From: Candidatus Zixiibacteriota bacterium
GTDB taxonomy: Bacteria > Zixibacteria > MSB-5A5 > GN15 > JACZUZ01
Assembly: GCA_024280775.1 (NCBI GenBank)
Contig: JAJRPM010000014.1
Location: 78,477 to 142,476, forward strand
Length of the DNA stretch: 64,000 bases
Reading direction: 5' to 3'
Shown: positions 744 to 48,974 of the stretch, piece by piece
How the letters are laid out: each line of letters starts with the position of its first letter
Numbering within the stretch: the first letter of the stretch is position 1
Program-made: the position numbers and the translations under genes
The notes under the pieces: model-generated
Database searches by the model: none
Seen by the model: only the letters and a program-made list of their open reading frames with translations
What the model was told of the DNA's origin: nothing

Positions 744-1262
744 TTATACCTCTTTTGCGCAGTCATTTATTTCGCTTGCTAGGAGTTTGAGTGGATGTTC
801 AATAGTTGGAAGCAGGAACTCTAGCGACTCTCGCACTGCCTTTGGTGAGCCGGGGAGGTTTATGATGAATGTTGAGCCTGCAATACCGGAAACTCCTCGT
901 GAATACATTGCGTACTTGGCTTTGGTGGCGCTGAACCTACGAAGCGCCTCATCGACTCCAGGCGTGGGACGCTCTAACAGCCGGGCAGTTACCTCCGGTG
1001 TATTGTCACGCGCGGCGCATCCGGTGCCTCCACTGGTTAGGACAAGTTGTATTCTGTTATCTATGCAAACTTGTAGCGCCTGTGTAATTTCTTCAGGAGT
1101 GTCACTAACTATGTCCGTACGTGTTACTTCAAACAGCGTGTTATCGAGAGCAGCACAAAACACAGGTATACAACCATCCTCGCGCTCGCCCGAGGACGCT
1201 CTATCGGAAATTATTATTATCGCTACGCTGTATGGCATACGCTCTTTACTTTTTCGTATCAC
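744..1262 (-). CDS. moaB: Molybdenum cofactor biosynthesis protein B / MogA-family (MoCF_biosynth domain)
   Basis: The 172-aa ORF contains ..IIIISDRASSGEREDG..LVLTSGGTGCAARDNTPE..INLPGSPKA. The GTG start overlaps the moaC stop (GTGA); an alternative ATG lies at 1238. Confidence 0.85.
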   Translation of the reverse strand: MIRKSKERMPYSVAIIIISDRASSGEREDGCIPVFCAALDNTLFEVTRTDIVSDTPEEITQALQVCIDNRIQLVLTSGGTGCAARDNTPEVTARLLERPTPGVDEALRRFSATKAKYAMYSRGVSGIAGSTFIINLPGSPKAVRESLEFLLPTIEHPLKLLASEINDCAKEV

Positions 1263-1753
1263 GAAGACTTATTGGTGAAGTCACCTGATTTCCCGCCGCG
1301 CTTTTCTAACAACATCAAATCTGTTATGACAATATCCTTTTGGAGAGCCTTTAGCATATCGTAGATTGTAAGAGCTGTAACACTGCAAGCAGTCAGAGCT
1401 TCCATTTCTACTCCGGTGTTCCACTCGCAGTTTACTTGCGCTTGCACTGTTACAGAGCGCCTGCTGTCATCCTGGGTAAACGCAATGCCTACACTATTCA
1501 ATGGAATTTGATGGCATAGCGGGATTAACTCTGCGGTTTTCTTGGCCGCTTGTATTCCGGCGATTTTGGCGACAGTTAGCACATCACCTTTGGCGCTTTT
1601 GTTTTCTCTTAGCGCTGTGTAGGTTTCATTATTCAGCAACACTGTCACTGATGCCGTTGCTGTGCGTATTGTTAGTGTTTTACCCGCGGTGTCTACCATC
1701 TTAGCGCGACCGTGTTCATCTACATGACTTAAGTTCTTACTCAAATGACCCAT
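1259..1753 (-). CDS. moaC: Cyclic pyranopterin monophosphate synthase MoaC
   Basis: The ORF contains LSHVDEHGRAKMVD..IAGIQAAKKTAELIPLCHQIPL..GVEMEALTACSVTALTIYDMLKA. I use the internal ATG at 1751-1753, 3 nt after the moaA stop; the track's 1816 start would overlap moaA by 60 nt. Confidence 0.9.
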   Translation of the reverse strand: MGHLSKNLSHVDEHGRAKMVDTAGKTLTIRTATASVTVLLNNETYTALRENKSAKGDVLTVAKIAGIQAAKKTAELIPLCHQIPLNSVGIAFTQDDSRRSVTVQAQVNCEWNTGVEMEALTACSVTALTIYDMLKALQKDIVITDLMLLEKRGGKSGDFTNKSS

Positions 1754-1755
1754 CA

Positions 1756-2700
1756 CTAGCCCCCGATTTCTGATAGTGATGGTAGGAATTGTCCTTTGAC
1801 TGCCTTGGTGTGACAACCGACAAAACGCTTTTGCGCCATGAAACCGTCTATCTTAGTCTCGGCCGTTTGGTAGCCGTCTTCGAGCATTTCGAAAAGATCC
1901 ATGCGGTGTCCTGAGAATAAGCAACTGTATAGCATTCCATCTGAGGCCAAACGGATGCGGTTGCAGTTTGTGCAAAATGGTTTGCTGACAGAGTTGATGA
2001 AACCAACCTGGATTTTCAGGTCGGGGGAACTGTAATATCTGGCTGGTGAGGCTTTTTCGGTTGGCGCCGGAGCGAAGGCGTAGCCGATGTGGCGCATAGT
2101 GTCAGCGCCGGAGACGAAACCGCGATTTGACGAGGCGCTGTAGCGGGTGGGCATGAATTCGATGAAACGCATGTCCACGCCCAAGTCATTGGCGAAATCC
2201 ACCATGTCTTTGGATTCAGTGTCGTTGACACCTTTTACCACTACGCAGTTTAGTTTCACATTCGGAATCACTCGCACTGCTTCGCGGATTCCTTCCACTA
2301 CTTTGTCAAAACAATCTACGGTTGTGATGGCTCGGAACTTGTCGGGGTCTACGGTGTCGATGCTGATGTTGACACTGTCTAGTCCTGCATCGGCTAGCGC
2401 TCGGGCTTTGCGTTTTAGGAGGCGGCCATTGGTGGTTATTGCAACGGGCATTGATGAGTCAAGCGACTTGGTGTAAGCAATCAATTCTTCTACTTGCGGG
2501 TAAAGCGTTGGCTCACCACCGGTGAAACGCACCCGTTGGATTCCCAGATGATGCATCAGTTTTATGGACTGTTTGAATTGCTCAGGGTCGGTGAAGTCTG
2601 ATGGACCGTAGGACTGGATTGACGGAGGTCGACAGTAGAAACAATTGAAATTGCAGGCCTTCAATAGTGACACTCTTAGGTATTTCATTCTATCATTCAT
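1756..2700 (-). CDS. moaA: GTP 3',8-cyclase MoaA (radical SAM)
   Basis: The 314-aa ORF has the N-terminal radical-SAM cluster motif LLKACNFNCFYCRP and the C-terminal second-cluster motif CTNCNRIRLASDG. It ends in TAG at 1756-1758. Confidence 0.95.
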   Translation of the reverse strand: MNDRMKYLRVSLLKACNFNCFYCRPPSIQSYGPSDFTDPEQFKQSIKLMHHLGIQRVRFTGGEPTLYPQVEELIAYTKSLDSSMPVAITTNGRLLKRKARALADAGLDSVNISIDTVDPDKFRAITTVDCFDKVVEGIREAVRVIPNVKLNCVVVKGVNDTESKDMVDFANDLGVDMRFIEFMPTRYSASSNRGFVSGADTMRHIGYAFAPAPTEKASPARYYSSPDLKIQVGFINSVSKPFCTNCNRIRLASDGMLYSCLFSGHRMDLFEMLEDGYQTAETKIDGFMAQKRFVGCHTKAVKGQFLPSLSEIGG

Positions 2701-2729
2701 AATACAGCCCCGTATTGCTTTCTACTCGG

Positions 2730-3245
2730 TTACAACTCTATTTCTTTTTGATTCCAACTTTTGTCACTGCTAAAGTTTCCAGCTAGTATAAAGTCTGCTA
2801 ACGCACCTAGTTCATCGTCATTGAAATGCTTGATTTCATAATCCAAGCGCTCTGCGCCATAGCTTGCTACTATGCCTTTTGGTAATTGTCCTTTTAGCGC
2901 TTCTTTGTTGCGGGTCAGGAATAGTTTCGGACGGTCGGAGGATTTGTCACCTTCGACTAGGCAGATGTCAAAATTTTCGGCGATGATTTTCCAGACGGCT
3001 TGTTGGAATTCCTCCTGCGGCAGAGCGAAGAGCGCCATTTCGGATTTGCCGATGGCCATTGTGAGTCCTGCGCCGGATTGACGGTGACGGTAGGAGTCTT
3101 TGCCTTCGGTGTCGAATGTATGCTGGTGGCCGGTATGTTTTACTGTGGCTACTTTCATTCGTTTTGCAACTAGCAGTGGGATTAGCTTTTCAACCAATGT
3201 TGTTTTGCCGGAGTTTTTTGCGCCGACTATTCCAAACTCAATCAT
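2730..3245 (-). CDS. mobB: Molybdopterin-guanine dinucleotide biosynthesis adapter MobB
   Basis: The 171-aa ORF has the P-loop GAKNSGKTTL followed by VATVKHTGHQH.F.DTEGKDSYRH. Its start overlaps the mobA stop by 4 nt. Confidence 0.9.
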   Translation of the reverse strand: MIEFGIVGAKNSGKTTLVEKLIPLLVAKRMKVATVKHTGHQHTFDTEGKDSYRHRQSGAGLTMAIGKSEMALFALPQEEFQQAVWKIIAENFDICLVEGDKSSDRPKLFLTRNKEALKGQLPKGIVASYGAERLDYEIKHFNDDELGALADFILAGNFSSDKSWNQKEIEL

Positions 3246-3859
3246 CTTGGCGCCTCTTCCCTGTTACAACTTTGGTGTATATCTTCAGGGGTGTTGATAT
3301 TGCGCCATGAAGTTTTTTGCATGGGAGTGAGCCGGTAGTTTAGCCCTTCGATAATTCTCCAAAGTTGATATGGCTCATTTCTCAGAGCGACTTTGCGAAA
3401 CTCACTTAGCGCCTTGGTTGCATAGATCCCGCAGAGCGGTTGGATGCGTCCTGACTCACTGATTCCAAGATAGTCTTCACCGTGATAGTTTTGCTGGAGT
3501 GTTTGTATTGTTGCTTCGTCAATGTCGGCCAAATCTGCGGCAATTATGAAACATGAATCCTCAGAGCGCTGGGTACAATCATTGAGCGCGGCTATTACTC
3601 CGCCTAGAGGCCCTGGCGCATCTGGAAAGTCTATCAACACTGGCGCTTTGAATTCGCTGAATTTTTCTGAGTCTTTGGCTACTATGCTCACTTGTTCGAA
3701 GGCGGCTCGACATATTCGTAGTGTATGCGCTAGCAGCGGTTCGCCGTCGACTGATACGAAGAGCTTGTCACGACCCATTCTACTGCTGGCTCCACCTGCC
3801 AGTACATAGGCGCTTCTGGGCGCTGACTTGATGTTCGGATGTGAGTCTGTGTTGTTCAT
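3242..3859 (-). CDS. mobA: Molybdenum cofactor guanylyltransferase MobA
   Basis: The ORF contains AYVLAGGASSRMGRDKLF.., the MobA signature. I prefer the ATG at 3857-3859 (MNNTDSHPN..), because the 20-codon upstream extension in the track runs through an intrinsic terminator hairpin. Confidence 0.85.
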   Translation of the reverse strand: MNNTDSHPNIKSAPRSAYVLAGGASSRMGRDKLFVSVDGEPLLAHTLRICRAAFEQVSIVAKDSEKFSEFKAPVLIDFPDAPGPLGGVIAALNDCTQRSEDSCFIIAADLADIDEATIQTLQQNYHGEDYLGISESGRIQPLCGIYATKALSEFRKVALRNEPYQLWRIIEGLNYRLTPMQKTSWRNINTPEDIHQSCNREEAPR

Positions 3860-3892
3860 TGTCAATTTCCACTTACGTAAGAAGCCACTTAC

Positions 3893-3923
3893 GAAAAAAT
3901 CCGTGACCGGTTTGGCCACGGAT
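3893..3923 (-). terminator. Intrinsic terminator between narI and mobA; possible expression platform of the leader described below
   Basis: The minus strand reads ATCCGTGGCC-AAACC-GGTCACGGAT (10-bp stem with one G.U, 5-nt loop) followed by a run of six T. Confidence 0.6.
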
Positions 3924-4109: not shown

Positions 4110-4826
4110 TTATACGCGGTCGCGTAATTTCGCTATTAAGGAACGGTTCTTATACCAACGCACCACCTGATGGCGACGCCACAAATATGGATTCGGAGCT
4201 ACTAGGACATGCACTAATCGTGTGAAGGGGAAAATCCCAATCAAGATGAAGGCGTTGATGATGTGTAATTTCACCGCCAACGGCAATGCTGTCACGTAGT
4301 TGACATCAGGACTGAATTTCGCGATTGACCACAAGTAAGGAGTCATCGCGCCGGAGAACCATGACGAACCCCAACGATGAAAGAGCGCCATGTATAGTCC
4401 CAAGACAATTTGAATGAGCAAAAACACCAGCAACAACCAATCAGTAGGACTGGTGACCATGCGCACCTTGGTGTTGTTCATACGTCTGCGAATCAAAGCT
4501 ATGATACCAATAAACGATAGCGCCGCGAATGCGAACATCACTGCCTCCAAAATATAGAGACGCACCGGAACACTGTTCCAATTGAGAACCAGTTTTGGTA
4601 AGAGGAACATCATTATGTGGCCGGTTAGAACCACAATCAAGCCATAATGGAAAGGCACCATGCCCCAGAAGTGAGTTTTGTTCTCCAGAAACTGTGAGGA
4701 TAGACTGGAGAAGGTAAACTTATGGATTCGGTAACGTTGGATAGTGACGAAGAAGAACGTAAATAACGCCACATACGGAAAAACTCCGAACAATATCTGA
4801 TCCAGTAGCAATCCTGAACTATCCAT
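4110..4826 (-). CDS. narI: Respiratory nitrate reductase gamma subunit NarI (dihaem b membrane subunit)
   Basis: A polytopic membrane ORF with His-containing helices (..FWGMVPFHYGLIVVLTGHIM.., ..LAVKLHIINAFILIGIFPFTRLVHVL..). Its position after narJ fits. The start may be 4826 (MDSSGLL) or 4844. Confidence 0.9.
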   Translation of the reverse strand: MDSSGLLLDQILFGVFPYVALFTFFFVTIQRYRIHKFTFSSLSSQFLENKTHFWGMVPFHYGLIVVLTGHIMMFLLPKLVLNWNSVPVRLYILEAVMFAFAALSFIGIIALIRRRMNNTKVRMVTSPTDWLLLVFLLIQIVLGLYMALFHRWGSSWFSGAMTPYLWSIAKFSPDVNYVTALPLAVKLHIINAFILIGIFPFTRLVHVLVAPNPYLWRRHQVVRWYKNRSLIAKLRDRV

Positions 4827-5379
4827 GCGCAACTTCCTTCCCATTCTTATCTGTATGACTCTCCGCGTGACGCGCTTTGACGTCTGCGTGAATCGTTTTT
4901 AACACTTTTACATACGGATTCTCAAGACCTTTAAGTCCAGAGAACATTTTATCCATAGCCGGAACAACATAGCCAGTAGCAAATGAGTTTGCTTCAACTT
5001 CATCCATGCGTCCGAGGGCGCGTAACACCTGTGAGAGGTGATCAGGTAACTCGGAGGTTTCGGCGATGTCCAACCGTCTTAGAGCTTGGCGCATGTGAAC
5101 AATGAATGCGCCACGCTCGTAGTTTTCGGCATAGAGTTGCCAGCCTACTTCCAGCGCGCATTTGGTATTTATATCGAAGGTCCGTGTGAAAAGCTCTTCG
5201 AGATCTTCGATTTCTTTACCTTCAACGGCTTCCACGAATTCCTGCAGGAAATCACAGCCAGCGGATTTTGCCAGATGCATTTCCTGCAAACAAATCTTCA
5301 GTGACTCATGGAAACCCGGCTGAGGATATTGAAGCAATCCTCCCAGAGAATCATATAGTTTGGCTTTGGAGTAACTCAT
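4819..5379 (-). CDS. narJ: Nitrate reductase assembly chaperone NarJ (delta subunit)
   Basis: A 186-aa acidic ORF between narH and narI, with the NarJ/TorD-like pattern ..FTRTFDIN..CALEVGWQLYAENYERGAF..LPDHLS. It ends in TAG at 4819-4821. Confidence 0.85.
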   Translation of the reverse strand: MSYSKAKLYDSLGGLLQYPQPGFHESLKICLQEMHLAKSAGCDFLQEFVEAVEGKEIEDLEELFTRTFDINTKCALEVGWQLYAENYERGAFIVHMRQALRRLDIAETSELPDHLSQVLRALGRMDEVEANSFATGYVVPAMDKMFSGLKGLENPYVKVLKTIHADVKARHAESHTDKNGKEVAHG

Positions 5380-5397: not shown

Positions 5398-6888
5398 CTA
5401 TAAACCTCTATGTGGTCCGGAGACAAATCCGAATCCGGCTTCCTGCTTGCGCACCATCGGATCCTGAAGCGCTTCTAGAGCTTCCTCGCGATGTGACGGC
5501 GGGATTACAAATCTGTCATCAACTGTGCAAAGCGATGTCAGCTTGTAAATCGCTTCGGCTTCTTCGACTGAGCAATCAGCGGCCGCAAGCATCTTTTTGG
5601 CGGTTTCCATGGTGATATCACCAACGGTTACCGCGCGTCGATACCAGCGCACTGCTTTTTGTTTTTTCAGAGCATAGAGAACTGGTTCGGTTTGTCCAGC
5701 TCCGAATAGGTTAGCGAGAAACTCCAGCGGCACCCGTGATTCTTCAATGTCATGGAAGAATTCATCAGTGACACTCTTGAGTTTGCCATCCTTCTGCGCG
5801 GCCATCACTGGTGACATTGGCGGTACATAGAACAACATCGGCAAAGTTCGGAATTCAATATGCGGCGGTAAGGCGAGTTTCCAAACTTTCACAAATTGAT
5901 AAACCGGTGATTCCTGCGCGGCTTTGATAACCGATTCCTGAATGCCATTGGCTCGCGCCCCGGCGATGACTTTATCGTCATTCGGATCGAGAATCATCGA
6001 ACGATGTCCCTCTATCAGACCTTCGTCGGAGAGACGCGCAATTTCTTCGATTCTATCTGCGTCATAGAGCAGAACTCCCAAGTAGCGGATTCTTCCAACA
6101 CATGAATGGAAACACGCCGGGGCCTGACCGGTTTCGATGCGCGGGTAGCAGAGAATACATTTCTCGGACTTACCTGTGCTCCAATTGTAGAACACCTTTT
6201 TGTAAGGACAGGCGGCGATACATGAGCGCCAGGCGCGGCAACGCTTTTGATCTACCAATACAATGCCGTCTTCGCCGCGTTTATATAGAGCGCCAGAGGG
6301 ACATGAGGCCACACAAGCGGGGTTCAAACAATGATTACAAATACGCGGGAAGTAGAAGAACACCATTTGTTCAATCGCTGAGAGTTGCTGACGTTGTTGC
6401 TCTGTCAGGGTGCTCAGATTTGGATCGTTCTTGGCGTAGGCCGGTGTGCCACTTAGATCATCGTCCCAGTTCGGACCGGATTCGATGTCAATGTATTCAC
6501 CGGTGACCATCGAAATCGGCTTGGCTGTCGGTTGATCATCACCTTCAGGCGCATTGAAAAGATTTTGATAGTCATAAGTCCACGGCTCGTAGTAATCATC
6601 CATACTCGGCTGGCTGGGATTGTGGAAAATGTTCGCCACAATGCGGGCCTTGCCGGTGGATTTCAAACGGAGCTTGCCTTTATTTTTCTCCCAACCGCCC
6701 TTGAACTTTTCCTGGTCTTCCCATAATGCAGGATAACCGGTTCCAGGTTTGGTTTCGACATTGTTCCACCACATGTACTCAGTGCCTTTGCGGTCGGTCC
6801 AAATGTTTTTGCAAGCAATACTGCAGGTATGACATCCAATACACTTATCGAGATGGAAAGTCATCGCAATTTGAGATCTTACATTCAT
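5398..6888 (-). CDS. narH: Respiratory nitrate reductase beta subunit NarH (Fe-S)
   Basis: The 496-aa ORF has the ferredoxin-type cysteine clusters CIGCHTCSIACK, CNHCLNPACVASCPSGA, CRAWRSCIAACPY and CILCYPR, plus the lone W-containing cluster typical of NarH. Confidence 0.95.
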   Translation of the reverse strand: MNVRSQIAMTFHLDKCIGCHTCSIACKNIWTDRKGTEYMWWNNVETKPGTGYPALWEDQEKFKGGWEKNKGKLRLKSTGKARIVANIFHNPSQPSMDDYYEPWTYDYQNLFNAPEGDDQPTAKPISMVTGEYIDIESGPNWDDDLSGTPAYAKNDPNLSTLTEQQRQQLSAIEQMVFFYFPRICNHCLNPACVASCPSGALYKRGEDGIVLVDQKRCRAWRSCIAACPYKKVFYNWSTGKSEKCILCYPRIETGQAPACFHSCVGRIRYLGVLLYDADRIEEIARLSDEGLIEGHRSMILDPNDDKVIAGARANGIQESVIKAAQESPVYQFVKVWKLALPPHIEFRTLPMLFYVPPMSPVMAAQKDGKLKSVTDEFFHDIEESRVPLEFLANLFGAGQTEPVLYALKKQKAVRWYRRAVTVGDITMETAKKMLAAADCSVEEAEAIYKLTSLCTVDDRFVIPPSHREEALEALQDPMVRKQEAGFGFVSGPHRGL

Positions 6889-6907
6889 TATACTCTTTCC
6901 TCTCGAG

Positions 6908-7363
6908 TTACCAGATTAGTTCAGGTAGTTTACGCACCAAAATGTGTGTGTCACGGTTACAACCTACCGGACCCCAATAGTTGAAATGGAAAGTAAACTG
7001 TCCATAGCCACCGGCCATCAGGCTCGGTTTCAACCTTGTGCGTGTTAGTGAATTATGTCCACCTGCGCGGCGATTTCCTCGCAGGGGTGATTTTGGCACA
7101 GAGTATGTGCGCTCTGGTGAGTGATATTGAATACACACACCAGGTGGAATTCGATAACTTACAACTGCGCGTGTCACTACCACACCGTGGTCATTGTGCA
7201 TCTCCACCCAGTCATTGTCATCAATTCCAATGGTCTTAGCGTCCTTTTCACTAATCCACAGTGGCTCTACACCGCGAGAGAGCGTGGTCATTCTTTGGTT
7301 GTCACCATAGGTGGAATGTATATGCCATTTACCATGCGGCGTGAGGTAATTCAGCGCTATTGA
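6908..7363 (-). CDS. narG: NarG C-terminal segment (151 codons), in the same frame as and contiguous with the upstream narG ORF after an in-frame TAG
   Basis: The codons immediately after TAG 7364-7366 read [82 protein letters not shown]. This is the NarG C-terminal beta-barrel domain. The track ORF (6908-7291) only begins at the first Met. Confidence 0.85.
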
Positions 7364-10300
7364 CTAGCCGTCCTCTTTGCTGAAACGCATATCCGAATAC
7401 TGTGTCGGTAGCGGTTTCGGCTTATAGGTCGGAAGATGTTCGCCAAATTGGATATACAACTCATGGTCGAGATAGAAATGCTGACGACCAGTCAAAGTGC
7501 GCCAGGGAACATCCATCTCCACGTTGTAAGTAAACGGTGAATAGGCGCGTCCGTTTTCTATCAAACCACTCCACATCGGGCTGTTGATAAATCGTTGCGG
7601 ACGAGTTTGCAAACCTTTGTAGGTGGCGCGAACCGAGCGTGATTTCTCAACCAACTGAGCTAGCGGCAGTCCTACTTTTTCTTCGATGTCCTTGTAGGAG
7701 CGGTGGGCAAGTTCTCCATTGGTCACTGAGGCGAATTTGAGAATTGTGTTACAAACATCCTCATCCTCTTTCAGTGAGGGATACTTACCTCCACCCCATT
7801 CTTCGGTATGCTCATTGGCGACCGCTTCATCATAGAAATCTTCAATTCCATAATGTGTTCCATGGGCCCCGAGACCGTTTTTGCGGGCTAACGGGCCGAA
7901 GGAAATGTACTGGTTGTAGAGATTCTTATAGTCACGTTTGACTATTTTCAAATGCGGCATTGTCTGACCGGGAATCGGCTCGACTTCACCGGCGCGCCAG
8001 TCTTTCATTGTCGGCTGAGTGATTTCCGCCGGCGTGTCATGCGCCAATGGCGCGGCGACCATATCGGCTACCGGCTCGGGGAAATGTTTCTCCGCGAACT
8101 TTGAGAATCTCTTTGAAATCGCCTGGAAAATTTTCCAGTCACTTTTGGATTCCCAACAGGGCGGGACAGCCGCTGACAGCGGATGAATGAAACTATGTAA
8201 GTCGGTTGAGTTTAGATCCGCTTTCTCATACCAAGTCGCCGCCGGAAGAACTATATCCGAATACAGCGCCGAGGTGTCCATGCGGAAGTTCAAATCAATC
8301 ACCAAATCCATCTTACCCTGCGGCGCTTTCTTGTGCCACTCGATGGTCTTGACTGAATCTTCGGCCATGTCAGTTGCGATTGCATTTGTGTGCGTTCCAA
8401 GGTAGTGCTTGAGAAAATACTCATGCCCTTTGGAGCTGGCCATCAATGCATTGCCACGCCAGATAAACCAAACCCGCGGCCAGTTTTCTGGCGCATCGGG
8501 ATCATCAACTGAGAATTTCAAATCACCAGACTTGAGACGTTTGACTACATCGGTGACAACCTGTTCGTCGCCAGTAGCGCCTGAGGCTTTTGCATCGTTG
8601 ATGACTTCCAGTGAGCTCTTGTTGAATTGCGGATAGAATGGCAACCAACCCGAGCGCACAGCGCGCGACTGGACATCCATTGTATGTCCCGAGGCGAGAG
8701 TTCCTTCCATTTGATGTTTCGGAACTGTGTGATAATCAGTGAATTCTTTTTCATAGCGCCATTGGTCTGTGTGCACATAGTGCCAGCTTGGCGCATTTTG
8801 CAATCGTGACGGTCCATACCAATCTTTGGCCATCGCGATTGCGCCCCATGATTCACCCGGAGCAAGTTTTTCCTGACCAACATAGTGCGCCAGCCCACCA
8901 CCATTGACACCCACACAACCACAGAGCATCAACGCGTTGATTCCCGCGCGATACATCAGGTTGCCATGATACCAGTGATTGATTCCAGCGCCGATGATTA
9001 TTGTGCATTTGCCATTGGTGTGTTCAGCGGTTGTCGCCCATTCGCGAGCAAAACGAATCACCATATCGCGGCTCATACCGGTATACTTCTCCGACCATGC
9101 CGGCGTGTATGGAGCGTCATCGTCATAGCTTAGGTTTTCATCACCAGCTAGGCCGCGCGGCACGCCATATTGGGCCATCAGCAGGTCATATACAGTTGTC
9201 ACTATGACAGTCTTACCGTCGGCGGTTTGGAGTTTGCGAACCGGAACCGGTCGCGCAATGTCCACTCCCTGACCAAAGTCATCGAAACGCGCGTTGACTA
9301 CTTCGTCATGCGAGTTCAACAATGTCAAAGCCGGATCGATTTCGCTACCGGTGACACCGTCTTTTAGCAGGAGATTCCATTTGCCTTTTTCTTTGCCCCA
9401 GCGATAGCCAACACTGCCCATCGGCATTTTGACTTTGCTTTCTTTGGCGTCCCACATCAAGTATTTCCACTCACCGTTTTCGATATCGGTGTAACCTTGC
9501 ATGCGGTTTGCGCGAAGCAGTTGGCCCGGAGTGTAAATACCGGCCTCATCAGTTTCACCCAGCTCTACTAGCATAGGCGAATCAGTAAACTTTTTGGTGT
9601 AATTGATAAAGTACGGTGTTTGTTTTTCGTGATGATACTCTTTGAGCAGGACGTGATTGACCGCCATCCACCATGCGCCATCTTGTCCGGCATTCAGCGA
9701 CACCCATTCGTCGGCGTACTTTGCAACCTGGTTAAAGTCCGGCGCAAAGACCCACATCTTGGTTCCGTTGTGACGTGACTCAGCGGCGAAGTGACAGTCA
9801 GGTGTGCGGGTCATATTGAGGTTTGAACCCATCACTGCCAGCAGTTTTGAATTGTACCAGTCAGCAGACTCGTGCACATCGGTTTGCTCGCCCCAGGCTT
9901 CCGGCGAGGCCGGAGGTAAATCGCAATACCAGTCATAGAATGATAGCCCCACTCCGCCCATCAGTTGGAGCATACGTGAACCGGAGGCATAACTTATCAT
10001 CGACATCGCGGGAATCGGCGAGAAACCAGCAATGCGGTCGGGCCCGTGTTCTTTGATAGTGTGGATATTTGAGGCGGCGATAATATCCAAGACAGTATCC
10101 CAACTGGCGCGACGGAATCCGCCTTTGCCGCGGGCTCTTTGCCAACGGGCGCGAGCTTCGGGGTCTGAGACCATCGCTTTCCAGGCATCCACCGGATCAT
10201 CATACTTGGCGCGCGCCTGTTTCCAAATATCGAGCAAGGCGCCGCGTAGGTAGGGATATTTTACACGAAGCGGCGAATAGAGATACCATGAATAGGAAAT

Positions 10301-10555
10301 CCCCCTCTGGCAACCGCGCGGCTCGTATGGCGGCAATCCGGCTTCTAATTCCGGATAGTCCAGTTGCTGCATTTCCCAGGTGACAATACCTTCTTTTACA
10401 TAAATCGCCCAGCTACATCCGCCGGTGCAGTTCACACCGTGAGTGCTTCGGATTACTTTGTCGTGCTGCCAGCGATTGCGGTAGAACTCTTCCCATTGAC
10501 GATTTTCGGGAGTGACTTCATCCTTAATCCACGGAGCGGTAGCTTCCTTTTTCAA
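7364..10555 (-). CDS. narG: Respiratory nitrate reductase alpha subunit NarG, N-terminal 1063 codons, ending at an internal in-frame TAG
   Basis: The N-terminal FS0 motif [18 protein letters not shown] is present, there is no twin-arginine signal, and Mo-bisPGD family motifs run throughout. Its length plus the C-terminal segment is about 1215 aa, a normal NarG size. Confidence 0.9.
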
Positions 10556-11463
10556 GATTTACCCCCGAGCTTTCCAGTTTTGTTTTTTGTAGATTTTAGT
10601 TTTGCGCTGTTGACCATCGGTCGGCGGACTGCGCGGAAACGCCCGCTCCAGAAACCGCCGAAGGCCATCAAGACAACCAGCGTTCCGCCAAGGCCGTAGA
10701 AAATTACACCCATCCAGAGGACAATTCCTCCGCTTTCGGGAGCGCTTTTCGCTGTTTTATCAAAGAGGGCAACTAATGCGTGTATTTCATCTGTTTCCAG
10801 CGGGTGAGGCTTAAAAACTGATTGCATTGTTGCAGTTGGCGGAGCCGAGAGCCAAGCTGTTAGCGCTTCGCGGCCCATCAAACGCTCTGAGACTTGAGTA
10901 AGATTCGGTCCCAAGTTACCACCCATCGCAGCGCCAGAGCCGTTGGTCGAGTGACATGACAAACAAGGCGGCGCTCCGCTTTTCAGCCGTGTGGCTCCGG
11001 TGAATAATTCCACGCCGTGAGCGACATCTGAATCTGTAAACGGAATCAGCGGCGCTGTTGTGCCTGCAAATTCGGAGGTCTCGAGCTTAGATTCGGCTTC
11101 TATCAAATCCAAGAGCTCTTCGGCGCGTTTGCGGTCGATTGGGACTGTAATCATTATGATCCCGTTGGCTTCCTTTTGGAGCTTTAGCGCGTACTCATCT
11201 CCGGCGTCGATTTTGGCTTTGGGGTTCATGATGAACTCGGTTAGCCAAGCGCGATCTTTGCGCTCCAGGACATTCTTTAAGTCAGGACCGATTAGTCGAC
11301 CGCCGCCGAGCTTGTGGCAACTAGTGCAATTGACCTTGAAAAACTCCTTGACCGTTTGCCCGAATCCGTTTGCGGGCAGACTTGCTATTAGCAATGTCAG
11401 GAGCATCGCCGTGGCGAATGACTTATGCCGTGTGATTGAGTAAGGCGTTTTCATTGGTGGCAT
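10552..11463 (-). CDS. narC: Membrane-anchored dihaem cytochrome c, NarC-like
   Basis: The 303-aa ORF has a signal peptide (..[17 protein letters not shown]), two CxxCH motifs (CTSCH, CLSCH) and a C-terminal hydrophobic helix ([26 protein letters not shown]). Its stop overlaps the narG start by 4 nt. Confidence 0.75.
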
Positions 11464-11860: not shown

Positions 11861-12646
11861 TCAACCACCTAAGATACGGAATCTGAATGGAAAAGTCGCC
11901 CATGATTTGATAGGCTTGCCACATCGAATCGCAGGACTAAATGTAGACTTTCCTGCGGCTACTAGTGAGGCCTCTTCCAGGCCCGCCTTGGTACCGGAAT
12001 TCTTTTCTATCTTGGCATCGATGACATCGCCTGATTCATCAATATGGACACTTACGTATACAACACCTTCAATACCTGCCTGCTGTGCCAAGCGCGGATA
12101 TACCGGGGGAATGCGATCTATGAAATTCGGTAAGACATAACTCGCTTTTTCCAAGCGCTGATTCCATGTATTCATTAAAACCCTAGCGATAGAGGCTGGC
12201 TTTTCTCTTTCGTGATTCTCCAGATATGATCTGATAGCCGAGATTGAATTCTCACACAAATCACAAGTATTTATTCTTTGTCTTATCGACTGTGTATCAT
12301 TCAACATTTTCTCATTTGAATCCAAGACCGACTTAAGAGATTGAAAATCTCGTTCAGCTTCCGAAGCTCTTTTGGCCTCCTCTGAGCGCTCGCGCCAAAT
12401 TTTCAACGCGACAAGAGCTACTTCTTTCCCTGCTCCTTCTGTATTCTCATCTAGATAAGACTGGATTGCGTTAACGGAGTTTTCACTAAGAATCACTTTT
12501 GCTTCGATATCTTCGGCGCTGACATACAACCGATCATTAGCCGAGATGGCATCTTGCATCATTGCGTAGTCATCTCTGTTAGATGTACAGCCGATAGTCT
12601 CTCCTAACAATAGGAGGATAAACAAAAAGTGGTACAAGTTCTTCAA
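11861..12646 (-). CDS. Lipoprotein with a C-terminal TonB-C (energy transducer) domain
   Basis: A signal peptide with lipobox (LLLLGETIGC) is followed by a helical middle region. The C-terminus reads PPVYPRLAQQAGIEGVVYVSVHIDESGDVIDAKI...FSPA...GKPIKSWATFPFRF, which is typical of TonB_C. The start codon is TTG. Confidence 0.7.
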   Translation of the reverse strand: MKNLYHFLFILLLLGETIGCTSNRDDYAMMQDAISANDRLYVSAEDIEAKVILSENSVNAIQSYLDENTEGAGKEVALVALKIWRERSEEAKRASEAERDFQSLKSVLDSNEKMLNDTQSIRQRINTCDLCENSISAIRSYLENHEREKPASIARVLMNTWNQRLEKASYVLPNFIDRIPPVYPRLAQQAGIEGVVYVSVHIDESGDVIDAKIEKNSGTKAGLEEASLVAAGKSTFSPAIRCGKPIKSWATFPFRFRILGG

Positions 12647-12889: not shown

Positions 12890-15166
12890 CTACTTGAAAC
12901 CAACAGATTTCAAAAATGTCAGCCAACGAGAGTCGCGGTATAGATTCTTGAATGATGGATACCTCTTCACTAGCGGGATTCCCGCATCATGGTTCAAAGC
13001 TGACTTTTCTAGCCATTCAAAGGCCTTGTCGACTTCGTTTCGATAGCTATAAACCATCGCAATTTGGATTCCCCAATCATCTCCCAATTCAACAAGATCG
13101 GCAAGAGCTCTATCTGACTCATCGGATTTCCCTTGGGCATGATAAATCGCTGCTAAACAACGATAGCGGTAACCATCTGCTTTCTCCAGCAACGCCGCTG
13201 AGACGGCTTCTTCTAGTCTACCTTCTAGAAGATAAATGGCGCCTATCGTAGCATTGATTGCCGTCATTCCAGGACTCAGTTCAAGAGCCTGATTCATCAC
13301 GCGCCTTGAATCTTCAAGTTTTCCGCTAAGAACCAGCGCAAGCCCATAGTACATGTGCGCCTCTGGATCGAGTGGATCAAGTTCAACGGACTTTCTTGCT
13401 AGCTCCAGACCCTCATCGAGGTCTCCAGTTAAGGCGAGGGTCCTCCCAAGAGCGCTCAGCGCTTTGCTGTCATTGGGAGCTAATTCAATTGCTTTTTGAA
13501 ACAAGGCTTTCCCAGATTCATAATCGTAGTCAAATGACGTGGTAATCCATCCGAGCGCCACATTCGCTGCAGGGATTTGATCATCGATTGCCAGAGCACG
13601 AAGAGCTGCATCTTTTGCCTTCAAGAATGTTGACTTGGTTTCGGAGTATCCATATCCAGCTTGCACACTGTAGGCGCTTGCCAGCCCAGCTAGGGCGTGG
13701 GCATTGTTTTCGTCAAGCTCCAACGCTTGTTTATAGAGCCCGATTGCGATGTCTGATGATTCTTTCGTGAATCTTCGTGAGAAAAAATTACCCCGCAGAA
13801 CTAGCGCGTGACTTTCAGGATTTGCTGTATGCTTTTCAGTGGATTTGCCCAATAACGTAACATCCAAAGCTTTCGAAACCTCAGCGGCGATTTCGTCCTG
13901 AACCGCGAAGATGTCTTCAAGTGTGCGGTCATAGGTTTCTGACCAGAGATGAAACCCATCGGTGACATTAACTAATTGCGCAGTGATTCTCACTCGTGCG
14001 CCAGACTTGCGCACACTTCCTTCAAGCAAAGTACGCACGCCTAGTTTCCTGCCAATCTCCCGCAAGTCTTCCTGAACACCTTTGAAGGCAAATGATGATG
14101 TCCGACCGGTTACTTTCAATTCAGGATTCTTGGCTAACACATTCAACAGCTCTTCGGTTAGTCCATCGGAGAAATACTCATTTTCGGGGTCGGCGCTCAT
14201 GTTTGCAAAGGGCAGAACCGCGATTGATGGTTGAACTTCGGCTTGCTCGATATTCGATTGACTGTTCGGTGATGCAAGTGAGTCTTTGATTGTGCGCAGG
14301 GAAGTTGCTAATTCTTTTGCGGTTTGATAACGCGAATCAGGATTCTTCGTGAAACATTTTGTAATGAGAGCTTGCAGGGATGATTGTATTGAGTCGGGGA
14401 TTTCTGTCTTGTGGTTATTTAGCGGCTCAGGTTCGGCATTGAGAATCATATTCAAAGTCGCGGCGGTGTTGTCTTTGCGGAATGGGGCAACACCGGTTAG
14501 TAATTCATAGAGCACAACTCCCAACGAAAACAAATCAGAGCGATTATCAACTGTGTGACCCTGCGCTTGTTCGGGTGACATGTAGGCGATAGTTCCAAGA
14601 GTTGAGCCGGCTTGTGTCAAATCCTCGCCGCCACGCACTGCCGCCAGGCCGAAGTCCAGAATCTTCGGGCGCATTTCTGCGTTGACTATGATGTTTGCGG
14701 GTTTGATATCGCGATGAGTTATTCCTTTGTCATGCGCCTGAGAAAGTCCATTGGCTACAGATTCAATCAGATTGATTACTTCGTTGACCGGTAAGCTTTC
14801 CTGACAATAATGTTGGAGAGTTTTGCCTTTGATGTACTGCATCGAGAAAAACGGCCTGCCGGAGAACTCACTGACTTCGTAGACTGTCACTATATTCGGA
14901 TGGTCCAGCGCCGCGGCGGCTTGCGCCTCGCGGATGAAGCGACGGCGGGTGTCCGGGTCTTGTGACATGTTAGTCGGTAGAAATTTTAGGGCTACTCGAC
15001 GATTTAGCTTGGTGTCATCGGCGAGATACACTTCACCCATACCACCGGCGCCGATTCGTTCGAGTATGCGGTAGTGTGACACCTCCAGGCCCTTGGTTAG
15101 CAGGACATGGGTAACGGTTTTATCGTCAGCTTTGTTGTCGACTTTGTTGTCGTTTGTGTTTGGCAT
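12890..15166 (-). CDS. Ser/Thr protein kinase with a TolB-N-like linker and a C-terminal TPR array
   Basis: Hanks kinase motifs are present (GAGGMGEVYLA, VALK, HRDIKPANI, DFG, SPEQ). They are followed by IAVLPFANMSADPENEYFSDGLTEEL and several TPR-like repeats. Confidence 0.9.
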   Translation of the reverse strand: MPNTNDNKVDNKADDKTVTHVLLTKGLEVSHYRILERIGAGGMGEVYLADDTKLNRRVALKFLPTNMSQDPDTRRRFIREAQAAAALDHPNIVTVYEVSEFSGRPFFSMQYIKGKTLQHYCQESLPVNEVINLIESVANGLSQAHDKGITHRDIKPANIIVNAEMRPKILDFGLAAVRGGEDLTQAGSTLGTIAYMSPEQAQGHTVDNRSDLFSLGVVLYELLTGVAPFRKDNTAATLNMILNAEPEPLNNHKTEIPDSIQSSLQALITKCFTKNPDSRYQTAKELATSLRTIKDSLASPNSQSNIEQAEVQPSIAVLPFANMSADPENEYFSDGLTEELLNVLAKNPELKVTGRTSSFAFKGVQEDLREIGRKLGVRTLLEGSVRKSGARVRITAQLVNVTDGFHLWSETYDRTLEDIFAVQDEIAAEVSKALDVTLLGKSTEKHTANPESHALVLRGNFFSRRFTKESSDIAIGLYKQALELDENNAHALAGLASAYSVQAGYGYSETKSTFLKAKDAALRALAIDDQIPAANVALGWITTSFDYDYESGKALFQKAIELAPNDSKALSALGRTLALTGDLDEGLELARKSVELDPLDPEAHMYYGLALVLSGKLEDSRRVMNQALELSPGMTAINATIGAIYLLEGRLEEAVSAALLEKADGYRYRCLAAIYHAQGKSDESDRALADLVELGDDWGIQIAMVYSYRNEVDKAFEWLEKSALNHDAGIPLVKRYPSFKNLYRDSRWLTFLKSVGFK

Positions 15167-15194
15167 TGTGTATGTGTTTTTTGGTCAGAAACAT

Positions 15195-15221
15195 GTCAAG
15201 TCCCTTAGAAGGGGACATGAC
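15195..15221. repeat. 27-nt palindromic repeat (family R6: GTCAAGTCCC-TTAGAAG-GGGAC[A/T]TGAC)
   Basis: The same hairpin sequence recurs at 29040-29066 and 29209-29235. Here it sits downstream of the four-kinase block. Confidence 0.75.
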
Positions 15222-15347
15222 CTGGTTGCTATAGTATACATTCTTCAAATGGGTTGGGCAATTTGCTCGGGCATGTCGGGTTTCTGCGTCACCTGAAGGT
15301 GACTCCGGAACCCGACCTACGATTCTTTTTGGAGCGGTCACATCTTT

Positions 15348-18014
15348 CTACTTTGAGAATCCGACCTGCCAGTTGTTTATGAAACTGATTTGGGTTGTTG
15401 CATTGCCGTCGCCGGCTACCTGATTTACAAGAAAACGTAATGGTGAATCATGGACATCATAAACTGTACCGAGACGGAAGCCTCTGACTTGAAACAGCTT
15501 GCTAACTTTGCCAGCTTTGAACACCGAACCAATGGCGCTGACATGGGCGACATTGATGAAGTCGTCATCATCAAGATAGTAGATTCTTCTACCATCGCTG
15601 CTCCACCTAGGTTTGGCTCCGCCATCGATAGAAACCTGCCATTTGCCATTCAATTCAGGAAATGGTGAGACATAGACCTCAGACTGGCCAGTTTCATCAG
15701 ATGTATAAGCCATCCACTGACCATCGCGGGAAAGCACGGCCTCAGTTTCATCAAACTGGGCTTCCAACAATGGATACGGTTGGATACTCGTATCGAGAGG
15801 AATCACCCAGGTGTCTGTCTGAACATTGGAAGAGTTTTCCGCAAACAGCAATTTGCCATCGGCAGACCAACTCATAAGAAACAGACTATTCCCGTTGATT
15901 TCGGCCAGCAATTCCGGTTCGCCGACACCGCTTGTTGTCTTGACGAGAACATGAGTTATTGAATCGACTTGAGCAACGTAGGCAATTCTATCTCCAGTAG
16001 GTGACCATGTGGGTGTGAATTCATCGGCGCTGTCAAACGTAAAACGCGTGCGGATACCACGCTGAATATTGTGTATCCAGATATCAGTTCCGTCGGTATT
16101 TTCGTCTCGCACATCTGAGGCCACACTTTCGCCGTCCGGCGAGAATCTCGGCGTGTATTGTTGAGTCTGTTCACCGACAGTATCCAGAATAGTTCCCGTG
16201 GAGTCCATCACGAGTAGGTTGGAGCCATTAAATATCGCGCCTGAACGAAAGATGAGTTTCCCGTCGGGGGACGCATCAAAAATGCCGTGACTCCAGGCTC
16301 CAAGATAGGAAACCGCCTCTGCCACAGGCGCTCCATCACCAGTATGCTCCAATGCGTCCGTGTCAAACGGTTGAGCCATCAAGATATTGTTGCGCATATA
16401 TAAGATATGCCCCTGCGAAAAAACTCCCTGAGACTTTGCATAGGTCAAATGCTTCGTTGTGCCATCAAGCAAAGATGAAACACGGATAGCATCTTTTTCA
16501 CCTCCAGCTCCGCTTCTAGTGCGAGCAAAGTATAGGAAGTGGTCACCGTCCGGGAGAAACTGCGCCCAACGATGCGTAATGTCACGTGTGGTCGAATCCA
16601 ACGTGGTAACCTGCTTCGGCTCTCCACCTGCAGATGAAACACGAAATATAGCGCCGGTAAAGCTTGGCGTAAAGATAATGACGTTATCGTTATTCCAGCT
16701 TCCACCACGACCTTGCGCTGCATCACAAAGAGTCAGCGCTGGACCGCCTGTTGCCAGAATTTTCTTGAGTTTACCACCGGTAAAAAAGGCGACATATTTG
16801 CTATCTGGTGACCAGAAAGGGAAGTATGCGTCCTTTGTCCCGGGCAAAGCGACAGAAACCGATGAACTGAATGAACGCACGAAAAGCATTATATCTCCAC
16901 TAACCGTGTCCTTGGCTGGGTATGCGATTTTCAATCCGTCTGGTGAGATAGCCATTGAGCCACCACCAACGTCGGACAGCGTTGCGCCGTTTTCGGTCAG
17001 GATGGTTGAAGAAAGTTTCTCTGGTGGAGTTTGGAGCTTCATTAGGAGCGCTCCGGCAAGTCCGACACTGAGCAGAATGAAAACAGCCGCGACAATCCAA
17101 GCGGTTTTCGATGCGCCAACCACTTTGCTGGCTAATAGCGAGCTAGCGCTCGATCCGCCATCACGAATCAATTCCAAAGAGCGCTTCAAGTCACCTGCTG
17201 ACTGCCAACGCTGGTCAGGGTCTTTACTAAGACATTGCTTAATAACTTTCTCAAGCGCCACCGGTGTCTTGGAAGAGAATTCAGAAACATCACGCGGTTG
17301 TTCCTTAAGAACCGAAGCAATCAAACTAGCGCGACTCTTACCCTCGAACGCGTTTTGCCCAGTGGCCATTTGATATAGTGTGGCTCCGAAAGCGAAAATA
17401 TCACTACGAGCGTCGGCCTCTTCGCCTTCAAGTTGCTCGGGCGACATATACTGCAAGGTACCGATGATGGCCCCTTGAGTTGTCAGCGGTGTGGTACGAG
17501 TTTCGGCGCTGGAGAGCGCATCGAGAAACCCTGCTTGCGGGGTGAACTTTGCCAAACCGAAGTCGAGTAGTTTCGCGCCCTCCTTAGTGAGCATGACGTT
17601 GCCGGGTTTGAGGTCACGATGCACCAAGCCCTGCTTGTGCGCTTTGTCGAGCGCATCGGCAATTTGTATGGCAACTGTAAGAAGTTCTTCGGAAGGAAGA
17701 GGCCCTTTGGCAAGTCTATCGGAGAGTGTCTCACCCTCGATGTATTCCATAACTAGATAGTCGATGCCGTCTTCAGAGCCGATGTCAAACAGTGTACAGA
17801 TATTGGGGTGATTCAACCCCGCTATAACTTTAGCTTCGCGCTCAAAGCGCTCTTTGATATCAGCGCTGTTGGCAACTTTTGCGTGCAGGACTTTGATTGC
17901 CACTTCTCTATCGAGACGAGTGTCTGTGGCTTTGTATACTTCGCCCATACCACCAGCCCCGGCCGAGCCTAGAATTTTGTAATGACCGAGTTGTTTACCT
18001 GTTTCTATACCCAT
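15348..18014 (-). CDS. Receptor-type Ser/Thr kinase: kinase domain, one TM helix, TolB/PD40 beta-propeller ectodomain (STK1)
   Basis: The 888-aa ORF has kinase motifs (GAGGMGEVYKA, VAIK, HRDLKPGNV, DFGLAK, SPEQ), the TM helix AWIVAAVFILLSVGLAGALLM, and repeated PD40 motifs (FSPDG, WSPTGDRIAY, WSADGK, LSRDGQWMAY, RWSSDGR). Confidence 0.9.
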   Translation of the reverse strand: MGIETGKQLGHYKILGSAGAGGMGEVYKATDTRLDREVAIKVLHAKVANSADIKERFEREAKVIAGLNHPNICTLFDIGSEDGIDYLVMEYIEGETLSDRLAKGPLPSEELLTVAIQIADALDKAHKQGLVHRDLKPGNVMLTKEGAKLLDFGLAKFTPQAGFLDALSSAETRTTPLTTQGAIIGTLQYMSPEQLEGEEADARSDIFAFGATLYQMATGQNAFEGKSRASLIASVLKEQPRDVSEFSSKTPVALEKVIKQCLSKDPDQRWQSAGDLKRSLELIRDGGSSASSLLASKVVGASKTAWIVAAVFILLSVGLAGALLMKLQTPPEKLSSTILTENGATLSDVGGGSMAISPDGLKIAYPAKDTVSGDIMLFVRSFSSSVSVALPGTKDAYFPFWSPDSKYVAFFTGGKLKKILATGGPALTLCDAAQGRGGSWNNDNVIIFTPSFTGAIFRVSSAGGEPKQVTTLDSTTRDITHRWAQFLPDGDHFLYFARTRSGAGGEKDAIRVSSLLDGTTKHLTYAKSQGVFSQGHILYMRNNILMAQPFDTDALEHTGDGAPVAEAVSYLGAWSHGIFDASPDGKLIFRSGAIFNGSNLLVMDSTGTILDTVGEQTQQYTPRFSPDGESVASDVRDENTDGTDIWIHNIQRGIRTRFTFDSADEFTPTWSPTGDRIAYVAQVDSITHVLVKTTSGVGEPELLAEINGNSLFLMSWSADGKLLFAENSSNVQTDTWVIPLDTSIQPYPLLEAQFDETEAVLSRDGQWMAYTSDETGQSEVYVSPFPELNGKWQVSIDGGAKPRWSSDGRRIYYLDDDDFINVAHVSAIGSVFKAGKVSKLFQVRGFRLGTVYDVHDSPLRFLVNQVAGDGNATTQISFINNWQVGFSK

Positions 18015-18031
18015 AAGAATTCGTAATCCTG

Positions 18032-20704: not shown

Positions 20705-20723
20705 CCAAGTGTTTCCCTGTATC

Positions 20724-23390: not shown

Positions 23391-23399
23391 GGAGTTCCC

Positions 23400-26066: not shown

Positions 26067-26285
26067 AGATATTCCTCTGCAAGAACGTGTGTTCAAAACG
26101 TCCCTAAATTGTCGTTGAAAACTACCTGTGTCCCAATGTCGCTATTATTGGTCAAAAACACAAATCGGACAAACGTAGTCTGATTTACGCTTACGCATTC
26201 AAATAATCTACCTTATTCACAGATTTTATATATATTGTCTACTGGAGAAAAGAACTCTCTCAACCTCGATACTCGGTGATAATTT

Positions 26286-46792: not shown

Positions 46793-46811
46793 CTGGGCTG
46801 GAGAAAGAACT

Positions 46812-47999: not shown

Positions 48000-48011
48000 C
48001 GTGGGTATATC

Positions 48012-48956: not shown

Positions 48957-48974
48957 AGATTCAGGAATCACACT

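What the first reader, a model, noticed from the sequence alone, without database searches (positions are those of the whole stretch)
7292..7366. A single in-frame TAG interrupts an otherwise intact narG
Seen directly: the 1063-codon narG ORF stops at TAG (plus-strand cta, 7364-7366). The next codon (7361-7363) and the 24 codons down to the Met of ORF 6908-7291 are in the same frame, since 7363-7291 = 72 nt, so there is no frameshift. Reading through gives ..[38 protein letters not shown].. Homology therefore continues straight across the stop into the conserved LN(F/Y)LTPH.KW.IHSTY block that I remember from E. coli NarG. The downstream 151 codons encode the whole C-terminal domain, so a protein truncated at the TAG should be non-functional. 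The stop falls in what looks like a poorly conserved linker. The rest of the operon (narC, narH, narJ, narI) and the Moco operon show no lesions. TAG is not globally reassigned, because moaA (1756-1758) and narJ (4819-4821) end in TAG at normal lengths. The options are a very recent nonsense mutation, a sequencing, assembly or population-variant artefact, or context-dependent readthrough or suppression in a Mo-bisPGD enzyme. That enzyme superfamily is already known for UGA/Sec recoding.
Basis: partly seen in the sequence, partly recalled or inferred. Interest (0 to 1): 0.6.

Follow-up and report, generated by a model that had tools for sequence, protein, structure and literature searches.

The report
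Single nonsense mutation in narG
One base change (GAG to TAG), found only in this genome, cuts an otherwise perfect nitrate-reductase gene in two; it is an ordinary, very young knockout mutation or an assembly error, not a special way of reading the genetic code.

Summary
The minus-strand narG (6908-10555) is 1215 sense codons long and has one in-frame TAG at 7364-7366, with no frameshift. The stop lies in a variable linker, 4 residues before the C-terminal Molydop_binding domain.

The recoding idea is not supported.
- The closest relative, a syntenic metagenome contig (L084, 95% aa identity, ungapped, also 1215 codons), has GAG (Glu) at this codon. The next closest (L081) has GAC.
- None of 82 related narG loci has a stop in this linker, apart from one frameshift-ridden contig.
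- TAG ends 16 of 42 long ORFs in the window, including narH and narJ in the same operon, moaA (ends ...EIGG) and BipA. TAG is therefore a normal stop here.
- There is no RNA structure downstream of the TAG, and no tRNA-CUA or pyl gene in the window. The base after the stop is U.

dN/dS is 0.03 on both sides of the stop. The window lineage has no excess of amino-acid changes (17 against 12). The lesion is therefore very recent or not real.

Best reading: a private G-to-T nonsense substitution in what is probably a Zixibacteria-like metagenome-assembled genome. It is either a young null allele or a consensus error, and reads are needed to tell which. Interest is low.

The parts
7364..7366 (-). 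In-frame TAG (codon 1064 of narG). It differs by a single G-to-T change from the GAG (Glu) of the closest relative.
7367..10555 (-). narG 5' part, 1063 codons with a TTG start that overlaps the stop of the upstream cytochrome c gene by 4 nt. It holds the FS0 ligands, the Mo ligand Asp and the Molybdopterin domain (PF00384).
6908..7363 (-). narG 3' part, 151 codons plus TAA, in the same frame as the 5' part. It holds the [16 protein letters not shown] block and the Molydop_binding domain (PF01568, residues 4-114).
10552..11463 (-). Dihaem cytochrome c gene (narC-like) upstream of narG.
5398..6888 (-). narH, intact at 496 aa. It ends in TAG.
4819..5379 (-). narJ, intact at 186 aa. It ends in TAG.
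4110..4844 (-). narI, intact at 244 aa.
744..3919 (-). Moco genes mobA, mobB, moaA (ends ...EIGG then TAG), moaC and moaB/mog. All are intact.

Best explanation
The TAG is a plain nonsense codon produced by one G-to-T substitution (GAG Glu to TAG) in the coding strand of narG. The change is private to this genome, which is probably a Zixibacteria-like metagenome-assembled genome.

Translation stops at codon 1064. The product has the FS0 cluster site, the Mo ligand and the Molybdopterin domain, but lacks the last 151 residues. Those residues form the Molydop_binding domain, which helps hold the Mo-bisPGD cofactor. Respiratory nitrate reductase is therefore expected to be inactive in cells carrying this allele. 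The lesion is very young, either a newly fixed or still segregating null allele, because nothing else in narG, narH, narJ, narI or the Moco genes has begun to decay.

Shown: the substitution, that it is private, that the gene is otherwise intact and under purifying selection, and that TAG is used normally as a stop.

Inferred: that the base is real in the population and not a consensus error, and that the truncated protein is inactive.
For: - The closest relative L084 is syntenic (TonB, cyt c, narGHJI). Its narG has 1215 codons, aligns without gaps at 87.8% nt and 95.2% aa identity, and has GAG at this codon. L081 has GAC.
- None of the 7 sequences sharing the MRFSKExG....[13 protein letters not shown] motif has a stop at this codon. 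Among 82 related loci, only one has a stop in the 40 residues before the block, and that one is a frameshifted contig.
- Against L084, dN/dS is 0.034 upstream and 0.028 downstream of the TAG, 0.020 for narH and 0.045 for narJ.
- Polarised with 10 outgroups, 17 amino-acid changes are derived in the window and 12 in L084. Only one of the window's changes lies downstream of the stop. With a total dS of about 0.73, this limits any neutral drift of the window's narG to at most a few percent of the branch.
- TAG ends 16 of 42 long ORFs, including narH and narJ (same lengths as in L084), moaA (canonical C-terminal GG) and BipA (635 aa, against 636-637 aa in relatives).
- narG is the only gene in the 64 kb that is split by an in-frame stop, so the assembly does not look error-prone.
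- The missing part is the whole PF01568 domain plus the invariant [16 protein letters not shown] block.
Against: - No reads are available, so a real mutation cannot be told from a consensus or base-call error, or from a minority variant captured by the assembler.
- The complete lack of any secondary decay is equally what an artefact would give.
- The stop sits exactly at a domain boundary in a variable linker. That is also the place where a tolerated lesion would be expected.
- Loss of activity is inferred, not measured.
Confidence: 0.55

Rival explanations
1. The TAG is not present in the real organism, or only in a minority of cells. It would then be a base-call or consensus error, or a rare strain variant picked up during metagenome assembly, and the true codon would be GAG.
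For: - The source looks like a metagenome-assembled genome. It is an NCBI contig of 195.6 kb with no cultured close relative, and the best named BipA hits are Zixibacteria MAGs at 75-77%.
- The change is a single base away from the relative's codon.
- The gene and operon are otherwise flawless, with dN/dS of 0.03 on both sides of the stop.
- G-to-T changes are a known oxidative-damage library artefact (own knowledge).
Against: - No other gene in the 64-kb window is broken by a stop or frameshift, so the assembly appears accurate.
- Substitution errors that survive into a consensus are rare at normal coverage.
- Young, strain-specific nonsense pseudogenes are common in bacteria (established knowledge).
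Confidence: 0.3
2. The lesion is real but tolerated, because some functional NarG is still made. One route is low-level near-cognate readthrough of UAG. The other is a two-piece enzyme: ribosomes that terminate at the TAG reinitiate a few codons downstream (ATA at +6 nt or CTG at +12 nt, behind an AGAGGA hexamer). The separate Molydop_binding domain would then assemble with the large fragment, as in formylmethanofuran dehydrogenase FwdB/FwdD.
For: - The stop lies in a variable-length surface linker, 4 residues before PF01568.
- An AGAGGA hexamer identical to the apparent Shine-Dalgarno sequence of narH lies 10 nt upstream of ATA.
- A natural split at the same domain boundary exists elsewhere in the superfamily (FwdB/FwdD, own knowledge).
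Against: - There is no canonical start codon (ATG, GTG or TTG) between the TAG and the conserved block. The first ATG is 24 codons downstream and would delete [21 protein letters not shown].
- The AGAGGA is simply the K-E-D codons, and it is present in the intact relative too.
- The +4 base is U, which from established knowledge in E. coli is the most efficient termination context.
- No relative carries such a split, so there is no evidence that it is maintained by selection.
Confidence: 0.08
3. The TAG is programmed recoding: it is decoded as pyrrolysine, or as another amino acid by a dedicated suppressor tRNA(CUA).
For: Only that the reading frame and the homology continue across the stop, and that the rest of the genome could not be searched for pylTSBCD or a tRNA-CUA.
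Against: - All relatives have ordinary sense codons at this position, and these codons vary among them.
- TAG is the stop of 38% of long ORFs, including two in the same operon.
- There is no downstream stem-loop (z = -0.41).
- The window has no tRNA-CUA, no pyl gene and no Rfam element.
- Full-text searches found no report of pyrrolysine in NarG or of Pyl use by Zixibacteria.
Confidence: 0.02

Closest known systems
Young nonsense pseudogenes, or segregating null alleles, in bacterial genomes
   Same: A single premature stop in an otherwise intact gene under purifying selection. It is private to one genome. The neighbouring operon genes are untouched.
   Different: Nothing distinguishes it. The only open point is whether the base is real, because the source is probably a MAG.
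E. coli respiratory nitrate reductase NarG (PDB 1Q16 / 1R27)
   Same: The window's narG aligns collinearly with it. The FS0 motif HGVNCTGxCSW, the Mo ligand Asp222 ([14 protein letters not shown]) and the C-terminal LN(F/Y)LTPHxKWxIHSTY block are conserved. The operon has narH, narJ and narI.
   Different: The window gene is interrupted at the position that aligns with the QKSNGNQEK linker of E. coli NarG. The operon is also preceded by a dihaem cytochrome c gene (narC-like, as in Thermus narCGHJI, from my own knowledge).
Selenocysteine (UGA) recoding in Mo/W-bisPGD enzymes such as formate dehydrogenase FdhF/FdnG
   Same: The same enzyme superfamily, and an in-frame stop codon inside the catalytic subunit.
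   Different: Sec recoding uses UGA plus a SECIS hairpin, occurs at the metal-ligating position, and is conserved among orthologues or alternates with Cys. Here the codon is UAG in a variable linker, no hairpin follows it, the Mo ligand is Asp, and no orthologue shares the stop.
Pyrrolysine (UAG) decoding in methylamine methyltransferases
   Same: An in-frame UAG in an enzyme gene.
   Different: Pyl sites are conserved active-site positions in MtmB, MtbB and MttB, and they need pylTSBCD. Here the site is not conserved, TAG is an abundant normal stop, and no pyl gene is seen in the window.
FwdB/FwdD of formylmethanofuran dehydrogenase (naturally split Mo/W-bisPGD subunit)
   Same: Domain IV (Molydop_binding) is a separate polypeptide, and the break falls at the same domain boundary as the TAG here.
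   Different: FwdD has its own start codon and is conserved as a separate gene. Here there is no canonical start codon and no conservation of the split.

Membership tests
Respiratory nitrate reductase alpha subunit NarG (TIGR01580) | The full-length profile match exceeds the curated cutoff. | tested here: met
   The N-terminal piece alone scores 1302 bits against a cutoff of 1084 (profile 22-1065). The C-terminal piece adds 185 bits (profile 1085-1233).
Respiratory nitrate reductase alpha subunit NarG (TIGR01580) | FS0 [4Fe-4S] ligands (HxxxCxxxC...C) and an Asp ligand to Mo. | tested here: met
   [18 protein letters not shown] and [14 protein letters not shown] align with E. coli NarG, including Asp222.
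Respiratory nitrate reductase alpha subunit NarG (TIGR01580) | narGHJI operon context. | tested here: met
   narH (665 bits), narJ and narI lie immediately downstream. The order is the same in L084.
Respiratory nitrate reductase alpha subunit NarG (TIGR01580) | An uninterrupted reading frame that encodes one polypeptide of about 1200 aa. | tested here: not met
   There is one in-frame TAG at codon 1064. As written, the gene is a pseudogene or null allele of narG.
Pyrrolysine-decoded genes | The in-frame TAG is conserved among orthologues. | tested here: not met
   None of 82 related loci has it. The closest relatives have GAG and GAC.
Pyrrolysine-decoded genes | pylT (tRNA-CUA) and pylSBCD are present in the genome. 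| tested here: inconclusive
   None is present in the 64-kb window. The rest of the genome was not available.
Pyrrolysine-decoded genes | TAG is depleted as an ordinary stop codon, which is typical of constitutive Pyl users. | tested here: not met
   TAG ends 16 of 42 long ORFs.
Sec-type recoding in Mo-bisPGD enzymes | A UGA at the metal-ligand position with a downstream SECIS hairpin. | tested here: not met
   The codon is UAG, it lies in a linker far from the Mo ligand, and no significant structure follows it.
Genome-wide stop-codon reassignment (TAG as a sense codon) | Genes run through TAG, and TAG is not used as a terminator. | tested here: not met
   narH, narJ, moaA and BipA end at TAG at orthologue length.

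The most novel reading that the evidence does not exclude
The nonsense allele is real and tolerated. The break falls exactly at the linker before the Molydop_binding domain. Termination-reinitiation at a non-canonical start behind the AGAGGA hexamer, or leaky UAG readthrough, would still supply enough two-piece or full-length NarG for nitrate respiration. That would be a newly arisen FwdB/FwdD-like split of a respiratory nitrate reductase.
Probability: 0.05. Interest if true: 0.55.

Novelty: already known. Interest (0 to 1): 0.1.

Why it matters
It matters little. If the base is real, this population or strain has just lost respiratory nitrate reduction, so metabolic inference from this MAG should not score narG as functional. 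If it is an error, the annotation should be repaired to a 1215-aa NarG. In neither case does it add a new recoding event to the Mo-bisPGD superfamily. The case does show that continued homology across a stop is not evidence for recoding, and that the codon in the nearest relatives together with genome-wide stop usage settles the question quickly.

Tried and rejected
- The first metagenome pattern scan returned nothing because my pattern had one N too many. I checked this on the window and loci and repeated the scan correctly. It found 3 more relatives, all with sense codons.
- The 149-aa 'C-terminal' proteins P0125 and P0128, from the same 90% cluster as the 127-aa ORF, looked as if they might be independent splits at the same site. 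One lies at a contig edge. The other is on a contig where narG is shattered by frameshifts. Both start at a natural Met in ...xMLNYL.... I rejected them.
- I could not recover the source contig by exact protein look-up. The accession, the rest of the genome and the reads therefore stayed out of reach.
- The genome-contig scan did not contain the source species. The best hit was 83% aa, Ca. Hinthialibacteria.
- The related genome GCA_024280835.1 (L089) shares the kinase array but has no nar operon beside it, so it gave no extra codon for this site.
- I looked for a PYLIS- or SECIS-like structure and found none. The Rfam gathering scan found only two tRNAs.
- Literature searches for Pyl in NarG or in Zixibacteria found nothing relevant.
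- I did not attempt structure prediction, because it would not bear on the question.

Full report
**Observation.** On the minus strand the window reads ...TTC AGC AAA GAG GAC GGC TAG TCA ATA GCG CTG AAT TAC CTC ACG CCG CAT.... Translating 6908-10555 (-) in a single frame gives 1063 codons, one stop, then 151 more codons and a TAA. Across the stop the protein reads ...[39 protein letters not shown].... There is no frameshift. The 24 codons between the TAG and the Met of ORF 6908-7291 are open and in frame. The NCBIfam narG model (TIGR01580) matches the upstream piece over profile positions 22-1065 (1302 bits, above the cutoff on its own). It matches the downstream piece over positions 1085-1233. 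Pfam places Molybdopterin (PF00384) upstream, and Molydop_binding (PF01568) starts four residues after the stop. Against E. coli NarG, the FS0 ligands ([15 protein letters not shown]) and the Mo ligand Asp222 ([14 protein letters not shown]) are conserved. The stop aligns with the non-conserved linker QKSNGNQEK that precedes ALNFLTPHQKWGIHSTY.

**Context.** The operon reads cytochrome c (10552-11463), narG, narH (5398-6888), narJ (4819-5379) and narI (4110-4844). It is followed by mobA, mobB, moaA, moaC and moaB/mog (744-3919), all on the minus strand and all intact. Exact-sequence look-ups show that the window comes from a 195,600-bp NCBI contig. In that deposit the 1063-aa truncated NarG and the 127-aa downstream ORF are both recorded as separate products, so the TAG is in the deposited assembly. 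The species is not among the GTDB representatives; the best narG match there is 83% aa. The window's BipA/TypA has its best named relatives, at 75-77%, in candidate division Zixibacteria MAGs. A T9SS sorting domain in a neighbouring gene fits the FCB group. The source is therefore most likely a Zixibacteria-like MAG.

**What relatives have at this codon.** The 90% cluster of the window's narJ led to a JGI metagenome contig, L084. It is syntenic (TonB, cytochrome c, narG, narH, narJ, narI), and its narG is an uninterrupted 1215 codons, exactly the length of the window's read-through product. The two narG genes align without a single gap, at 87.8% nucleotide and 95.2% amino-acid identity. At the TAG position L084 has GAG...AAA GAG GAC GGC GAG ACG GTA GCT TTG... 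against ...AAA GAG GAC GGC TAG TCA ATA GCG CTG.... One G-to-T change is enough to explain the stop. The next closest sequence, L081 (96% aa over the C-terminus), has GAC.

A degenerate DNA pattern for MRFSKExG....[13 protein letters not shown] was checked on the window and on known loci. It then found three further metagenome contigs, with CCA, CCA and AAC at this codon. Across the loci fetched, 82 contain the N(Y/F)LTPHGKW block. Only one of these has a stop in the 40 preceding residues, and that contig has narG broken into several frames. The linker varies in both sequence and length. So the stop is private to this sequence, and the site is not a conserved special position.

**Is TAG decoded specially here?** No. 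Among 42 non-overlapping ORFs of at least 100 aa, 16 end in TAG, 18 in TAA and 8 in TGA. The genes that end in TAG include:
- narH and narJ of the same operon, each exactly as long as its L084 orthologue;
- moaA, which ends with the canonical C-terminal ...EIGG, followed by TAG and then TGA;
- BipA, at 635 aa against 636-637 aa in relatives.

Apart from adjacent, unrelated genes that happen to share a frame, narG is the only case in the window where a long open frame continues past a stop. The 120 nt after the TAG fold no better than shuffled controls (z = -0.41). Rfam finds only tRNA-Met and tRNA-Lys, and ARAGORN agrees. No pyl gene appears among the window's ORFs. The base after the stop is U, which in E. 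coli is the context of most efficient termination (established knowledge). Literature searches gave no report of pyrrolysine in NarG or of Pyl use in Zixibacteria.

**Age of the lesion.** Nei-Gojobori estimates against L084 are:

| Region | dN/dS | dS |
|---|---|---|
| narG, 1063 codons upstream of the TAG | 0.034 | 0.79 |
| narG, 151 codons downstream of the TAG | 0.028 | 0.46 |
| narH | 0.020 | |
| narJ | 0.045 | |

. I polarised the amino-acid differences with ten outgroup NarGs. This gives 17 changes derived in the window lineage and 12 derived in L084. At outgroup-invariant columns the counts are 2 and 4. Only one window-derived change lies downstream of the stop. If narG had drifted neutrally for even a few percent of this branch, tens of extra replacements and some indels would be expected. 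None is seen. The stop is therefore either extremely recent or not real.

**Interpretation.** The best-supported reading is an ordinary nonsense substitution, GAG to TAG. The product would lack the whole Molydop_binding domain and the invariant [16 protein letters not shown] block. It should therefore be inactive, although this is inferred and not tested. Without reads I cannot separate a real young null allele from a consensus error or a captured minor variant. I weight the real allele higher (0.55 against 0.30), for two reasons. The rest of the 64 kb shows no broken genes, and young strain-specific nonsense pseudogenes are common.

Two 'functional' readings cannot be formally excluded, but they have no positive evidence.
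- The first is a tolerated lesion, through leaky readthrough or through a two-piece enzyme made by reinitiation. The break is at the same domain boundary that is naturally split in FwdB/FwdD. An AGAGGA hexamer identical to the apparent Shine-Dalgarno sequence of narH sits 10 nt before an ATA codon. However, there is no canonical start codon before the conserved block. The hexamer is just the K-E-D codons, which the intact L084 gene also has. I give this about 0.08.
- The second is programmed recoding by Pyl or a suppressor tRNA, at about 0.02.

**Comparison with the known.** The gene is a NarG by every sequence criterion except an intact frame. The lesion is the commonest kind of gene inactivation. 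It differs from Sec recoding in this superfamily in the codon used, in its position, in lacking a hairpin and in lacking conservation. It differs from Pyl decoding in lacking conservation and in the abundant use of TAG as a stop.

**Verdict.** This is an ordinary feature of low interest.

Noticed in passing
window 12890-26096 (-); L089 10001-22667: There are five tandem Ser/Thr protein-kinase genes. Four are paralogues of about 890 aa with PD40/Tricorn beta-propeller C-terminal parts (15348-26096), and one is a kinase-TPR protein (12890-15166). A related genome (GCA_024280835.1) has at least five such genes in tandem. Their blastn identities to the different window copies are mosaic (74-92%), which suggests recombination or gene conversion within the array. 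In that relative the nar operon is not next to the array.
   Followed up: partly
window 7367-7380 (-) and 6889-6905 (-): The hexamer AGAGGA (codons K-E-D) lies just upstream of the TAG, 10 nt before an ATA codon and 16 nt before a CTG codon. It is identical to the apparent Shine-Dalgarno sequence in front of narH. The intact relative L084 has it too, so it is probably a coincidence.
   Followed up: partly
window 10552-11463 (-): A cytochrome c gene of 303 aa with two haem-binding domains overlaps the narG start by 4 nt (narC-like, as in Thermus narCGHJI). A TonB-family gene lies upstream (11861-12646). The same arrangement is found in L084.
   Followed up: partly
window 51178-53019 (+): A 613-aa ORF has a C-terminal Peptidase_S74 domain (the intramolecular chaperone of endosialidase and tail fibres). 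It is a phage tail-fibre-like protein in what otherwise looks like chromosomal context.
   Followed up: no
window 46370-49679 (+): A compact polyamine operon: AdoMet decarboxylase, an Orn/DAP-type decarboxylase, spermidine synthase and a class-I glutamine amidotransferase. Three consecutive genes happen to share one reading frame.
   Followed up: no
window 36276-38294 (+), 43176-44336 (-), 53217-54539 (-), 54765-56228 (-): These long ORFs (386-672 aa) have no Pfam match at E <= 1e-5 or 1e-6. Several have no member other than the window's own sequence in their 90% cluster.
   Followed up: no
L082 (ENA ERZ25039600 contig_12331): A related nar operon on a 14.4-kb contig has narG and narH broken into many short genes. 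This pattern is typical of uncorrected long-read indel errors, and such contigs can mimic split narG genes in protein databases.
   Followed up: partly
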